From sequence record PQ287651.1: a stretch of 64,000 nt of DNA; one strand, written 5' to 3'. A model generated the notes under the pieces. That model saw only the letters and a list, made by a program, of their open reading frames with translations, had not been told where the DNA came from and made no database searches. Shown here piece by piece: positions 63,197-63,923 of this stretch (within the stretch, counting starts at the first letter, position 1; each line of letters begins with the position of its first letter). The stretch comes from Pseudomonas phage HHBS18_1. The position numbers and the translations under genes were made by a program.

Positions 63197-63202
63197 ATCT
63201 GC

Positions 63203-63783
63203 GAAAGCGGAGCTTTCAAGTGTAATTAACATGTAATGTTGTAACACTCTGTAGAAGGTAGCACCAGCATGACAAGATAGACCACTTGTAACGTTGACGT
63301 TACATGTATAACAGCATGACAGCGAAAGCTGTATGTTCACATTCTGTATAGATAACCCTATCAAATAACCCCACAATAACCTACCTAAAACCTACCGGTT
63401 TAAAGCGGCCTGATAGGCCGTAGATTAAGCGATAGCTTCGCTATGTTAGTCTGCACCGTCAAGGCGAAAGCCTTACAGCATGAGGCTTGTAGGAGGTTTT
63501 AGAGGCATATGCGATTAGCATAGGATGTTGGTTGTTTTGAGTAGATTTTGGGTATAACCCCTTTCCGCGCTACCATTGTCTCAGTGATGTTAAGCGACAG
63601 CTTACATCCGCTCTCATTTTGCAATGAGAATTGCAACTGATCTCCCATGCGCTTCAAAAGTGACTTCACTTTGCATGCGGATGCATGCTATAGTATACCC
63701 TGTGATAGCTCCGCTATCCCGTTTTGCATGGCACACGAATTGCATAAGCATGACAGGGGTAACCCTCGAAAGCGGAGCTTTCA
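63203..63783 (+). repeat. pair of 24-bp direct repeats (CGAAAGCGGAGCTTTCAA(A)GTGTA at 63202 and 63767), each holding palindrome GAAAGC-GGA-GCTTTC, bracketing an ORF-free region
   Basis: also three copies of palindrome GATAGC-N3/4-GCTATC (63433, 63703, 63867) and hairpins AAGGC-GAAA-GCCTT, TAAGC-GACA-GCTTA, CTCATT-TTGC-AATGAG. Confidence 0.7.
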
Positions 63784-63838
63784 AAGTGTAGTCTCTACCC
63801 TTTAGTATATTGCGACCGGAAGTAGTGACACTGAAAAC

Positions 63839-63868
63839 ATTGACTCTAGCCCAGTAAATACGTTAAAC
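63839..63868 (+). promoter_or_regulatory. sigma70-type promoter TTGACT-N17-TAAACT
   Basis: upstream of ORF starting 63924. Confidence 0.45.
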
Positions 63869-63923
63869 TAAAAGGTTGATAGCTGCCGCTATCGAGTAAC
63901 CAACATTCACACAAGGAGGCACA

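What the first reader, a model, noticed from the sequence alone, without database searches (positions are those of the whole stretch)
63197..63923. Second long ORF-free AT-rich region bracketed by 24-bp direct repeats and packed with palindrome families
About 720 bp between terminator 63171-63196 and promoter 63839 carry no credible ORF. A 24-bp element CGAAAGCGGAGCTTTCAA(A)GTGTA occurs at both borders (63202, 63767). Each copy contains the palindrome GAAAGC-GGA-GCTTTC.

Inside are three copies of GATAGC-N3/4-GCTATC (63433, 63703, 63867) and three AGCATGACA motifs. Several stable hairpins are present: AAGGC-GAAA-GCCTT, TAAGC-GACA-GCTTA, CTCATT-TTGC-AATGAG, GGCC-TGATA-GGCC. There are also two GCATGC sites.

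Possible roles are a structured non-coding RNA, a cluster of dimeric-protein binding sites such as a regulatory looping or partition locus, an alternative origin, or a remnant inserted element bounded by direct repeats. Together with 54388-55364 this makes two atypical non-coding islands in the same arm.
Basis: seen in the sequence. Interest (0 to 1): 0.6.

Follow-up and report, generated by a model that had tools for sequence, protein, structure and literature searches.

The report
Phage genome-end region full of hairpins
This gene-free stretch is where the linear genome of a Pseudomonas phage is cut to make its ends: it straddles the start of the roughly 1.2-kb terminal repeat. It is packed with unusually many short, conserved DNA hairpins whose role is still unknown.

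Summary

The window is a Pseudomonas aeruginosa Pakpunavirus (PAK_P1/PaP1/JG004/C11 type). Region 63197-63923 is the junction between the right unique arm and the ~1.17-1.19 kb direct terminal repeat (DTR). Termini annotated or measured in five relatives map to 63592|63593 (up to 63598|63599).

No ORF is conserved, and there is no Rfam match. The segment between the two "border" repeats is present in all relatives, so it is not an insertion.

- **Hairpin density:** 19 perfect hairpins in 727 bp, against 2.1±1.5 in shuffles.
- **Conservation:** stems vary in 7.5% of columns, against 29% in loops and 37% elsewhere.
- **Loop type:** mostly G..A loops closed by C-G (GCGNAGC/GCGNNAGC "mini-hairpin DNA").
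- **Extent:** the dense zone runs through the whole DTR, including its HNH-like gene, which shows compensatory changes.
- **Sister genus:** Nankokuvirus has the same architecture without sequence homology.
- **Promoters:** three σ70-like promoters lie in the first 280 bp of the DTR.

Best reading: a cis-acting terminus, packaging and early-promoter region. The closest analogue is the untranslated repeat regions of the T5 terminal repeat. The DTR is already known; the hairpin cluster appears undescribed and its mechanism is inferred.

The parts
63171..63196 (+). Intrinsic terminator that ends the right-arm early operon
   Evidence: 7-bp stem with 6 GC pairs, followed by a T-run. Invariant in 14 relatives.
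63202..63224 (+). Border repeat copy 1, CGAAAGC-GGA-GCTTTCAAGTGTA (hairpin 63203-63217). It lies in the unique right arm, 390 bp before the DTR boundary.
   Evidence: In five relatives the loop is GACA instead of GGA, while the stem is invariant.
63228..63304 (.). TGTAAC-type repeats and hairpins: AACAT-GTA-ATGTT (63228-63240), TGTAACG-TTGA-CGTTACA (63287-63304), plus the first AGCATGACA (63266-63274).
   Evidence: They resemble the ATTGTGTAAC repeats of the Nankokuvirus DTR.
63313..63332 (+). Second AGCATGACA, fused to hairpin ACAGC-GAAA-GCTGT (core GCGAAAGC)
   Evidence: The loop is GAAA or GGAA in relatives.
63357..63580 (.). Most conserved non-coding core. It holds three tandem 11-mers (63364-63396: AATAACCCCAC, AATAACCTACC, TAAAACCTACC). 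It also holds hairpins at 63388, 63406, 63431/63432 (GATAGC-TTC-GCTAT), 63461 (AAGGC-GAAA-GCCTT) and 63508.
   Evidence: Nearly invariant even in phage EM, which is 81% identical overall. Variation is concentrated in the loops.
63591..63604 (+). Terminus hairpin TAAGC-GACA-GCTTA. The DTR left boundary (physical left genome end) falls at 63592|63593 (EM, Ab02, JG004), 63594|63595 (C11) or 63598|63599 (K5).
   Evidence: Experimental termini come from PMC5175280, PMC3652863 and PMC4482731. Several relatives carry a 20-nt tandem duplication polymorphism immediately upstream.
63593..64000 (.). First 408 bp of the direct terminal repeat (about 1165-1192 bp in relatives). It continues beyond the window.
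   Evidence: Start and end of the records are exactly duplicated in EM, K5 and Ab02. repeat_region features are annotated.
63612..63688 (.). Overlapping hairpins: TCTCATT-TTGC-AATGAGA, TTGCAAT-GAGA-ATTGCAA, AAAGTG-ACTT-CACTTT and GCATGC-GGAT-GCATGC
   Evidence: Stems are invariant, while the 63637-63650 spacer is hypervariable.
63665..63694 (+). Promoter P1: TTCACT-18-TGcTATAGT (extended -10), 72-101 bp from the left genome end
   Evidence: Invariant in 14 relatives.
63704..63718 (.). Palindrome GATAGC-TCC-GCTATC, starting about 2-3 nt after the predicted P1 start site
   Evidence: Its position relative to the -10 element was read from the sequence.
63747..63790 (+). Third AGCATGACA plus border repeat copy 2, CGAAAGC-GGA-GCTTTCAAAGTGTA. 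It lies 175 bp inside the DTR.
   Evidence: Relatives carry a 12-nt insertion polymorphism directly after it.
63804..63831 (-). Leftward promoter-like site PL: GTGTCA-16-TATACT. The -10 reads TATAAT in the PaoP5/PAK_P4 group.
63840..63869 (+). Promoter P2: TTGACT-18-TAAACT.
   Evidence: The -35 TTGAC is invariant. The -10 is TAAACT, TAGACT or TACAAT in relatives.
63878..63893 (.). Palindrome GATAGC-TGCC-GCTATC, starting about 1-2 nt after the predicted P2 start site
63925..64000 (+). Start of the DTR-encoded HNH-endonuclease-like early gene (RBS AAGGAGG at 63914). The gene runs off the window.
   Evidence: PHROG 953 'HNH endonuclease', E 2e-65. tblastn homologues are annotated HNH or AP2. It corresponds to gp124, the last gene of the PAK_P4 early region (PMC5563952).

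Best explanation
**What is shown.**
- The window is a Pakpunavirus genome. Region 63197-63923 is the concatemer-junction and terminus region.
- It consists of the last ~395 bp of the right unique arm plus the first ~330 bp of the ~1.2-kb direct terminal repeat.
- The left physical end of the virion DNA maps to GTTA|AGCG (63592|63593), inside the hairpin TAAGC-GACA-GCTTA.
- The DNA is non-coding. It is conserved better than the genes around it.
- It belongs to a ~2-kb zone (DTR plus flanks) with about ten times the normal density of short perfect palindromes of the stable 'mini-hairpin' type. Their stems are under purifying selection.
- The first 280 bp of the DTR carry two rightward and one leftward σ70-like promoters. 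The rightward pair faces the DTR's HNH-like early gene.
- Both rightward promoters have a GATAGC-N3/4-GCTATC palindrome that begins within 1-3 nt of the predicted start site.

**What is inferred.**
- The region acts in cis on DNA.
- The conserved core and palindromes flanking the cut site serve as recognition or architectural signals. They would guide the terminase to cut and duplicate the DTR at packaging, and perhaps stabilise or protect the ends.
- The GATAGC palindromes would act as operators or 5' stem-loops controlling the DTR gene.
For: **Identity.**
- 136 Pakpunavirus records match at 80-99% identity.
- DTR features or record ends in C11, EM, K5, Ab02 and JG004 map within 6 nt of each other onto 63592-63599.
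- Termini were measured by ligation-PCR (C11, 1173 bp; PMC5175280), run-off sequencing (PaP1, 1190 bp; PMC3652863) and read pile-ups (Ab phages, 1153/1165 bp; PMC4482731).

**Cut sites.**
- The right boundary is identical in four records: GGGTTCRTGGTT|AAGTAGC. GTTAAG is present at both boundaries.
- The sister genus has similar cut contexts, GATGATCA|AGCC and GGGTCTTGTT|AAA, although an nhmmer search finds no alignable homology.

**Non-coding status and conservation.** Supported.

**Hairpin statistics.**
- 19 hairpins against 2.1±1.5 in shuffles.
- G..A loops in 13 of 19 here against 40 of 243 elsewhere (p = 2.6e-6).
- Variable columns: stems 7.5%, loops 29%, other positions 37% (p = 9e-5 and 7e-17).
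- 8 of the 10 long-stem GCGNAGC/GCGNNAGC motifs of the window lie here. 7 of 8 in C11 1-31000 lie in 1-1500.
- The dense zone runs from -500 to about +1000 around the boundary.

**Selection inside the DTR gene.**
- 15 hairpins in 603 nt, against 1.6 in codon-order shuffles. Alleles that share about 60% amino-acid identity keep 7-11.
- 9 pairs and 18 cells show changes on both sides, against 2-5 pairs and 3-9 cells in slid controls.
- One example is GGATCGT/ACGATCC in C11 against GGCTCGT/ACGAGCC in EM.

**Parallels.**
- The Nankokuvirus DTR (756-771 bp) is non-coding. PAK_P3 has 22 hairpins in 1.3 kb against 4.3±2.2 expected.
- T5's terminal repeat has conserved untranslated repeat and palindrome regions that straddle the repeat boundary. 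In some relatives these are split by an HNH gene (bioRxiv 10.1101/866236).

**Promoters.** Supported.
Against: - No termini data exist for this exact phage. The window holds only one DTR copy.
- The role of the palindromes in packaging is purely by analogy. No terminase-binding data exist.
- GTTAAG alone is not specific: about 21 copies occur in the window.
- The right boundary is not itself inside a hairpin.
- The hairpin-dense zone is far larger than a typical terminase recognition site and covers a coding gene. This suggests an additional or different function.
- Promoters are consensus matches only (9 of 12). No TSS data were available.
- RNA-seq annotation of PAK_P4 shows only a leftward antisense RNA over the DTR gene.
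Confidence: 0.6

Rival explanations
1. The palindromes are dsDNA operators for one or more dimeric phage or host proteins. The region would be mainly a transcriptional control region that shuts off or times the DTR gene and the divergent promoters. It would have no role in end formation.
For: GATAGC-N3/4-GCTATC sits at about +2 to +17 of both rightward promoters, with the same offset from the -10 element. The family is confined to this locus. Stems are conserved, while spacers vary in sequence and in length, 3 or 4 nt. There is no G.U versus A.C asymmetry, as expected for duplex sites.
Against: Most palindromes belong to no sequence family: there are 19 different stems. The spacers are biased towards G..A closed by C-G, which matters for hairpins and not for duplex operators. 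The copies at 63203, 63431 and C11 990 are not next to promoters. Dense palindromes inside the coding gene are hard to explain as operators.
Confidence: 0.2
2. The hairpins are single-strand initiation or origin signals. Extruded or displaced strands would fold into SSB-resistant mini-hairpins that direct priming, as proposed for the phage G4 complementary-strand origin or for RSF1010 ssiA. This would make the DTR region a replication start or end-replication device.
For: GCGAAAGC (three copies) and GCGAAGC/GCGGAGC cores match the mini-hairpin motifs described at phage replication origins (PMC13037366). Three tandem 11-mers lie at 63364-63396. Folding as DNA gives z = -3.1, against -1.9 and -1.3 as RNA.
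Against: There are no DnaA boxes. The other island, 54388-55364, has much more typical iterons. No replication data exist, and the hairpins occur on both strands.
Confidence: 0.12
3. The region encodes one or more structured non-coding RNAs, or highly structured UTRs that protect phage transcripts.
For: GNRA-type loop variants (GAAA, GGAA, GAGA) sit on the + strand. Promoters P1 and PL could give short transcripts. These phages degrade about 90% of host mRNA and make antisense RNAs, including as17 over the DTR gene (PMC5563952).
Against: There is no Rfam hit at E <= 5-10 and no tRNA or tmRNA. RNA fold z-scores are weak. The core shows no compensatory pairs. G.U is not preferred over A.C (15 versus 18 pairs). 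Some loops, GACA and TAGA, are not GNRA. PAK_P4's RNA-seq-based annotation places no ncRNA over the equivalent of 63197-63690.
Confidence: 0.1
4. The palindromes are a by-product of how the DTR is copied. Repeated strand-displacement or fold-back synthesis at the junction would favour template switching. That process perfects quasi-palindromes, so the density would reflect a mutational bias rather than a function.
For: The zone coincides with the DTR plus flanks in two genera that share no sequence homology. Individual hairpins in the DTR gene are gained and lost between alleles while the density stays high. Small tandem duplications occur exactly at the terminus and next to palindromes.
Against: In the non-coding part the stems are far more conserved than the surrounding bases across all relatives. 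Specific hairpins are invariant from the window's phage to EM. The loop composition bias (G..A) is not predicted by this model.
Confidence: 0.08
5. The hairpins are N4-type single-stranded promoters read by an unrecognised phage RNA polymerase. Alternatively, they form a T5-like injection-stop signal that pauses genome entry.
For: GAAAGC-GGA-GCTTTC has the same GCGGAGC core, 3-nt GGA/GAA loop and 5-7 bp stem as the N4 virion-RNAP promoters (PMC13037366). The region is at the first-entering DNA. The authors of PMC5563952 noted take-over so fast that it suggested an own transcription apparatus. T5's iss region is likewise an untranslated palindrome-rich part of the terminal repeat (10.1101/866236).
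Against: No RNAP is predicted in these phages, and rifampicin abolishes their growth (PMC5563952). The hairpins lie downstream of the early operon's terminator, not upstream of the early genes. The early genes have their own strong σ70 promoter family, TTGACA-16-TAGAAT. There are no DnaA boxes of the kind found in T5 iss, and two-step entry has not been reported.
Confidence: 0.05
6. The region is a remnant mobile insertion bounded by the 24-bp direct repeats.
For: There are two exact 18-bp direct repeats 565 bp apart.
Against: The segment is present in essentially all of the 121 related records, with no empty site. There is no transposase or integrase ORF. The repeats are hairpin-family members rather than target duplications, and they lie on either side of the DTR boundary.
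Confidence: 0.02

Closest known systems
Direct terminal repeats of PaP1/PAK_P1-like phages (Pakpunavirus), as determined for PaP1, C11, JG004 and the Ab01-Ab25 phages
   Same: This is the same locus by homology (90-97% identity). The DTR left boundary falls inside the finding, and the DTR carries the same HNH-like gene (PMC3652863, PMC5175280, PMC4482731).
   Different: Those papers report only the length and position of the repeat. The papers searched here do not describe the palindrome cluster. The terms 'hairpin' and 'palindrom' are absent from PMC12846349, 'palindrom' from PMC4482731 and 'hairpin' from PMC4177049. PaP1 was stated to lack complicated secondary structures.
Untranslated repeat regions and injection stop signal (iss) of the phage T5 left terminal repeat
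   Same: Both are large ORF-free regions in, and overrunning, the terminal repeat. [quoted passage not shown] In some relatives the region is interrupted by an HNH endonuclease gene (10.1101/866236).
   Different: T5's repeat is about 10 kb and has 8 ordered DnaA boxes and a 131-bp inverted repeat; none were found here. Two-step injection is not known for Pakpunavirus. There is no sequence homology.
Mini-hairpin DNA motifs GCGNAGC/GCGNNAGC (phage G4 origin hairpin, N4 virion-RNAP promoter hairpins)
   Same: The sequence cores are identical: GCGGAGC, GCGAAGC, GCGAAAGC and GCGACAGC. Stems are 5-7 bp with 3-4-nt G..A loops, and the motifs cluster at a phage genome end (PMC13037366).
   Different: There is no N4-like RNAP. 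The motifs occur on both strands and inside a coding gene. Hairpin extrusion and any polymerase or primase interaction are untested.
T7 concatemer junction (pac sequences, short repeat arrays in the terminal repeat, hairpin intermediate in repeat duplication)
   Same: Both have a DTR genome with site-specific ends, repeats and inverted repeats next to the repeat boundary, and host-RNAP promoters close to the left end. This comparison rests on my own knowledge of the T7 literature, not on a paper read here.
   Different: The T7 repeat is 160 bp and non-coding, and T7 has its own RNAP. The elements share no sequence.
Nankokuvirus (KPP10/PAK_P3) DTR
   Same: It is the sister genus. Its 756-771-bp non-coding DTR lies in the syntenic ORF-free gap. 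It shows palindrome enrichment and similar cut-site contexts: the left end starts AGC and the right end stops at ..GTT.
   Different: There is no alignable sequence and no HNH gene. It has different palindrome families (GGCTTC-N3-GAAGCC) and ATTGTGTAAC iterons inside the DTR.

Membership tests
Pakpunavirus direct terminal repeat junction | Homology to sequences whose ends were determined experimentally | tested here: met
   Termini come from PMC5175280 (C11), PMC3652863 (PaP1) and PMC4482731 (Ab phages).
Pakpunavirus direct terminal repeat junction | The same sequence is present at both ends of the linear genome | tested here: met
   Exact duplication in the EM (1192 bp), K5 (1182 bp) and Ab02 (1165 bp) records. 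This was tested in relatives only; the window itself holds one copy.
Pakpunavirus direct terminal repeat junction | Fixed read ends or termini in this phage's own virion DNA | not testable with these tools
   No reads or virion DNA are available for the window's phage.
Mini-hairpin DNA (GCGNAGC / GCGNNAGC) | Sequence motif with a C-G closing pair and a G..A loop | tested here: met
   10 motif hits lie in 63197-63923, 8 of them with stems of at least 5 bp. The rest of the window averages 0.75 hits per 727 bp.
Mini-hairpin DNA (GCGNAGC / GCGNNAGC) | The hairpin actually forms, by extrusion or in single-stranded DNA | not testable with these tools
   Only in-silico folding was possible (DNA z = -3.1).
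N4-type hairpin promoter | 5-7 bp stem with a 3-nt GGA/GAA loop | tested here: met
   Hairpins at 63203, 63768, 63704 (- strand), 63432 (- strand) and C11 990 (PMC13037366).
N4-type hairpin promoter | A cognate single-subunit virion RNA polymerase | not tested
   I did not search the proteome. The literature says no RNAP is predicted and that growth is rifampicin-sensitive (PMC5563952).
N4-type hairpin promoter | Located upstream of the early genes it drives | tested here: not met
   The cluster lies downstream of the early operon's terminator. The early genes have their own TTGACA-16-TAGAAT promoters.
Described RNA family (Rfam), including group I intron around an HNH gene | Covariance-model match | tested here: not met
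   Only chance-level hits on the window (E >= 2.4, far below gathering scores) and on the complete junction of PAK_P4 (E = 0.31, 14 bits against a gathering score of 88). No tRNA or tmRNA.
T5-like terminal-repeat untranslated repeat region / iss | ORF-free, repeat- and palindrome-dense region in or straddling the terminal repeat, conserved more than the flanking ORFs | tested here: met
   compared with 10.1101/866236.
T5-like terminal-repeat untranslated repeat region / iss | Ordered DnaA boxes | tested here: not met
   No TTATCCACA match (<=1 mismatch) lies in 63197-63923.
T5-like terminal-repeat untranslated repeat region / iss | Two-step DNA injection | not testable with these tools
   This requires an infection experiment.
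Mobile element bounded by direct repeats | Presence/absence polymorphism and a mobility gene | tested here: not met
   The segment is present in all full-length relatives. No conserved ORF.
Iteron-type replication origin | Tandem iterons plus initiator or DnaA sites | tested here: inconclusive
   Three tandem 11-mers at 63364-63396, but no DnaA boxes. Better iterons occur in 54741-54950.

The most novel reading that the evidence does not exclude
The terminal repeat and its flanks form a dedicated zone of stable DNA mini-hairpins. Selection maintains the zone at the DNA-structure level, even at the expense of the amino-acid sequence of the embedded HNH gene, and it is reinvented with different sequences in the sister genus.

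Under this reading the hairpins are structure-specific signals needed for making, duplicating or protecting the ends of long-DTR genomes. Alternatively, they might support hairpin-dependent priming or transcription. This would be a class of cis-element not yet described for this phage family.
Probability: 0.2. Interest if true: 0.7.

Novelty: new member of a known kind. Interest (0 to 1): 0.4.

Why it matters
Pakpunaviruses are among the phages most used in therapy against Pseudomonas aeruginosa. Their ends are known only as coordinates.

If the hairpin zone is required for cutting, duplicating or protecting the terminal repeat, it defines the minimal cis-acting packaging signal. That signal is needed to engineer these phages, to build transducing or packaging systems, and to predict termini from sequence.

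The finding also offers a natural case in which stable mini-hairpin motifs are selected in double-stranded phage DNA and inside a gene. That bears on how long-DTR genomes are processed, a step that I believe is understood mechanistically only for T7.

If the cluster is merely a by-product of repeat duplication, it is instead a footprint of that mechanism.

Tried and rejected
- **Rfam.** Scans of the window (62000-64000) and of the complete junction in PAK_P4 returned only chance hits. This rejects a known ncRNA or a group I intron around the HNH gene.
- **ARAGORN.** No tRNA or tmRNA.
- **RNA folding and RNAalifold on the conserved core.** z-scores were weak and no compensatory pairs appeared, because the stems are invariant.
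- **G.U versus A.C test for a transcribed strand.** No asymmetry.
- **Small ORFs.** None is conserved. Annotations in relatives are inconsistent between records.
- **DnaA boxes and IHF sites.** No DnaA box lies in the region. One IHF consensus match sits at 63869-63881 (- strand), at chance level.
- **AGCATGACA as a -35 element.** I found no matching -10 by inspecting the sequence, so its role remains unexplained.
- **Homology between the Pakpunavirus and Nankokuvirus non-coding regions.** nhmmer with a profile of 14 sequences found nothing.
- **Pfam on the DTR protein.** No hit. PHROGs and tblastn identify it as HNH-like.
- **IMG/VR scan for more relatives.** Only 6 loci were found, so covariation power stayed low in the non-coding part.
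- **Hairpin density as a property of this HNH family.** Homologues in Klebsiella and Salmonella phages have 5 and 2 hairpins, against 7-15 here.
- **Strand bias of G..A loops across the boundary.** From a hand tally of the hairpin loops, roughly 5:1 (+ versus - strand) upstream and 3:7 from the boundary onwards. No test was run, and the numbers are too small to be convincing.
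Full report
**What the window is.** Megablast of 62900-64000 finds 136 phage records, all Pseudomonas aeruginosa myoviruses of the genus Pakpunavirus (PA10, PAK_P1/P2/P4, C11, JG004, PaP1 type), at 80-99% identity. 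A more sensitive search with the finding alone (63197-63923) finds 121 records. In 115 of them one match covers at least 80% of the query. No hit falls outside this genus.

**Checking the observation.**
- The terminator (63171-63189 plus T-run) and the TTGACT-18-TAAACT promoter-like site (63840-63869) are there.
- All ORFs inside are at most 72 aa. None stays intact across 14 relatives. Several overlapping frames on both strands stay open in close relatives only because the DNA hardly varies. EM, SPA05 and PaSzW-1 carry frameshifts or stops.
- The border element CGAAAGCGGAGCTTTCAA is an exact 18-mer at 63202 and 63767, followed by GTGTA with a one-base indel. Its palindrome occurs nowhere else in the window.
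- AGCATGACA is at 63266, 63313 and 63747: 5 in the window against 0.48 expected.
- The region holds 19 distinct perfect hairpins (stem >=5 bp, loop 3-5). That compares with 2.1±1.5 (max 8) in 1000 dinucleotide shuffles, and a mean of 2.8 (max 8) in sliding windows over the rest of the 64 kb.
- The AT-richness is mild, at 43-46% GC.

**What it is.** In several related records the match lies at the very end of the record and occurs twice. C11 annotates a repeat_region that starts, in window coordinates, at 63595.
- EM and Ab02 start their DTR two bases earlier (GTGTTA|AGCGACAGC, i.e. 63592|63593).
- JG004's record ends and restarts at that same point.
- K5 starts four bases later than C11, at 63598|63599.
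- In EM, K5 and Ab02 the first 1165-1192 bp of the record are identical to the last.

These ends were determined experimentally or from reads:
- ligation-PCR plus restriction mapping for C11, 1173 bp (PMC5175280);
- terminal run-off sequencing for PaP1, 1190 bp (PMC3652863);
- fixed-end read peaks for twelve Ab phages, 1153/1165 bp (PMC4482731);
- phage Adele also has 1165 bp (PMC12846349).

So the finding straddles the left boundary of the direct terminal repeat. Positions 63197-63592 are the end of the unique right arm. Position 63593 onward is the DTR.

The two 24-bp "border" repeats lie on opposite sides of this boundary, 390 bp before it and 175 bp after it.

The right DTR boundary lies outside the window. 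It is the same in four records (GGGTTCRTGGTT|AAGTAGC), and GTTAAG occurs at both boundaries.

**Surroundings.**
- Upstream lies the + strand early region. In PAK_P4 this region runs from gp080 to gp124, and gp124 is the gene inside the DTR (PMC5563952).
- The DTR gene starts at 63925. It matches PHROG 953 "HNH endonuclease" at E 2e-65. Its tblastn homologues are annotated HNH or AP2. It has no Pfam hit.
- PAK_P4's RNA-seq-based annotation shows only a leftward antisense RNA (as17) over this gene. It shows no ncRNA over the equivalent of 63197-63690.
- After the DTR, the left arm is transcribed leftward. In concatemers the junction is therefore a zone of convergent transcription.

**Conservation.** I aligned the window with 13 relatives at 81-96% identity.
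- The terminator, both border repeats, the AGCATGACA copies and all hairpin stems are invariant or nearly so. So is a core at 63357-63580.
- Upstream gene content differs between relatives, including a ~320-bp gene indel. The DTR gene falls to about 60% amino-acid identity in some.
- Columns in hairpin stems vary in 7.5% of cases, loops in 29% and other non-coding columns in 37% (Fisher p = 9e-5 and 7e-17).
- Loop variants keep a G..A form: GAAA, GGAA and GAGA. The first border repeat switches between GGA and GACA.
- Indel polymorphisms sit exactly at functional-looking spots. There is a 20-nt tandem duplication ending in TGTTAA right at the terminus. There is also a 12-nt insertion after border repeat 2.

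**Nature of the palindromes.**
- Thirteen of the 19 loops start with G and end with A on one strand, against 40 of 243 elsewhere (p = 2.6e-6). Most are closed by C-G.
- The cores are GCGGAGC, GCGAAGC, GCGAAAGC, GCGACAGC and GCGGCAGC. These fit GCGNAGC/GCGNNAGC, the "mini-hairpin DNA" motif.
- That motif is known for extreme thermal and nuclease stability. It is found at the G4 complementary-strand origin (GCGAAAGC). It also occurs in the N4 virion-RNAP promoters (GCGGAGC, 5-bp stem, GGA/GAA loop) (PMC13037366).
- Of the 10 such motifs with stems of at least 5 bp in the window, 8 are in the finding. In the part of the genome missing from the window (C11 1-31000), 7 of 8 lie within the first 1500 bp.
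- A profile across the C11 concatemer junction shows the dense zone running from about -500 to +1000 relative to the left boundary. It covers the DTR plus flanks.

**Hairpins inside the gene.**
- The DTR HNH gene carries 15 perfect hairpins in 603 nt. Codon-order shuffles give 1.6±1.3 (max 6).
- Alleles that share about 60% amino-acid identity keep 7-11.
- Homologous HNH genes in Klebsiella and Salmonella phages have 5 and 2.
- On an 11-sequence alignment, 9 pairs and 18 cells show changes on both sides. Slid controls give 2-5 pairs and 3-9 cells. Paired cells are 79.9% against 28-43%.
- In one helix the stem changes from GGATCGT/ACGATCC (C11) to GGCTCGT/ACGAGCC (EM), while the PaoP5 allele carries GGTTCG/CGAACC at the same place. 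Reading the codons, the third position of a Gly codon changes together with its partner, and the partner's amino acid changes too.
- G.U and A.C departures are equally frequent (15 against 18 pairs; 3 against 4 in the non-coding part). Nothing therefore points to one transcribed strand. Together with a stronger fold z-score as DNA (-3.1) than as RNA (-1.9 and -1.3), this leans towards a DNA-level constraint.

**Sister genus.**
- In Nankokuvirus (PAK_P3) the syntenic position is a ~920-bp ORF-free gap.
- Seven independent records start at the same base inside it. Two of them, Ab06 and Ab03, annotate a 756- or 771-bp DTR containing only a doubtful 49-aa ORF (PMC4482731).
- This region has 22 perfect hairpins in 1.3 kb against 4.3±2.2 in shuffles. 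Thirteen have 3-nt loops. The families include GGCTTC-N3-GAAGCC. There are also five direct and one inverted ATTGTGTAAC repeats.
- A profile of the Pakpunavirus region finds no homology there.
- The cut contexts nevertheless resemble each other. Left: GATGATCA|AGCC against GATGTTA|AGCG. Right: GGGTCTTGTT|AAA against GGGTTCGTGGTT|AAG.
- The architecture is thus maintained while the sequence has turned over.

**Promoters.** The first 280 bp of the DTR hold three σ70-like sites:
- P1 (63665-63694), TTCACT-18-TGcTATAGT, invariant;
- PL on the minus strand (63831-63804), GTGTCA-16-TATACT, which reads TATAAT in another clade;
- P2 (63840-63869), whose -10 is TAAACT, TAGACT or TACAAT.

A GATAGC-N3/4-GCTATC palindrome begins 8-9 nt after the -10 of both P1 and P2, within 1-3 nt of the predicted start site. 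These promoters differ from the strong early promoter cassette of the right arm, TTGACA-16-TAGAAT. No TSS data were available to me.

**How it most likely works.**

Shown:
- The region is the DTR junction.
- It is non-coding and under strong constraint.
- The constraint falls on dyad symmetry.

Inferred:
- It is a multifunctional cis-acting DNA region.
- The conserved core and hairpins around GTTA|AGCG would provide the context that lets the terminase cut at an otherwise non-unique short site. GTTAAG occurs about 21 times in the window.
- The same elements would allow the single junction copy of the repeat to be duplicated.
- The promoter-proximal palindromes would regulate the DTR gene.

The nearest described analogue is the set of untranslated repeat regions of the T5 terminal repeat. 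These straddle the repeat boundary and are full of repeats and palindromes. They are conserved better than the neighbouring genes, and in some phages they are split by an HNH gene (10.1101/866236). The T5 hallmark of ordered DnaA boxes is absent here.

**Rivals** are scored in the report sections:
- duplex operators for a dimeric regulator;
- priming or origin signals;
- structured RNA;
- a mutational by-product of repeat duplication;
- N4-like hairpin promoters or a T5-like injection stop;
- a remnant mobile insertion bounded by the 24-bp direct repeats.

The insertion idea is contradicted. A known ncRNA or an intron is not supported.

**Novelty.** The DTR of these phages is already known. 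The papers I read give only its length. PaP1 was explicitly said to lack complicated secondary structures. The terms "hairpin" and "palindrom" are absent from the Adele paper, and "palindrom" is absent from the Abidjan paper.

The mini-hairpin cluster, its extension into the HNH gene with compensatory changes, and its counterpart in the sister genus therefore appear to be new observations on a known feature. I file it as a new member of a known kind, namely repeat- and palindrome-rich cis-acting terminal-repeat regions. Interest is moderate at 0.4: the identity is ordinary, but the hairpin selection is unexplained and testable.

Noticed in passing
window 55849, 56390, 59136, 62498 (+); degenerate copies at 57479, 60651, 61318, 61955; 55121 (-): A family of strong early promoter cassettes, TTGACA-N16-TAGAAT. 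Each sits in a ~45-bp conserved unit whose inverted repeat GGCCATTC...GAATGGCC brackets the -10 element. Their architecture differs from the promoters in the DTR.
   Followed up: partly
window 54388-55364: The other ORF-free island is a different kind of element. It has four tandem ~22-bp units (TAGGRACTGGRCAGATTTT, about 54741-54830), three GTTAGCA repeats (about 54900-54950) and a small ORF at 54565-54738. It shows no mini-hairpin cluster and looks like an iteron-type origin candidate.
   Followed up: partly
L003:1-1173 versus L001:3525-4695 (phage C11, KT804923): The two DTR copies in the C11 GenBank record differ at four positions. Two are single-A indels directly at the GAAAGC and GATAGC palindromes. 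These may be sequencing artefacts at stable hairpins or real heterogeneity.
   Followed up: partly
window ~63126/63127 versus L001:2802-3062 and L002:2802-3062: C11 and PAK_P4 carry an extra ~320 bp just upstream of the terminator, with an 86-aa hydrophobic ORF (C11_171 / PAK_P400122). The window's phage lacks it. Gene content is fluid right next to the highly conserved non-coding region.
   Followed up: no
window 63581-63590, and the alignment: PAK_P4, PaoP5, vFB297, PAK_P1 and one IMG/VR genome carry a 20-nt tandem duplication (…TGTTAAC GTTTCCCCGATTG TGTTAAG|CG…) that duplicates the cut-site motif immediately before the terminus. C11 and SPA05 have an 11-nt insertion at 63552. Many relatives have a 12-nt insertion after border repeat 2.
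   Followed up: partly
L003:330-932 and homologues (the DTR HNH-like gene; window 63925 onward): The coding sequence carries 15 perfect hairpins in 603 nt, against about 1.6 expected. Compensatory changes alter the encoded amino acids, so a nucleic-acid constraint is overlaid on the protein-coding gene.
   Followed up: yes
L024:6772-7530 (PAK_P3); L025:1-756 (Ab06): The Nankokuvirus DTR is entirely non-coding. It holds five direct and one inverted copy of ATTGTGTAAC, which resembles the TGTGTTAAG found at the Pakpunavirus terminus in some relatives.
   Followed up: partly
L003:1089-1102 versus L008 (EM), about 75-85 bp before the right DTR boundary: Hairpin TTAGC-TGTC-GCTAA contains the reverse complement of the core of the left-terminus hairpin (AGCGACAGCT). 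In EM it is replaced by TTGGC-TACC-GCCAA, a compensatory stem change.
   Followed up: no
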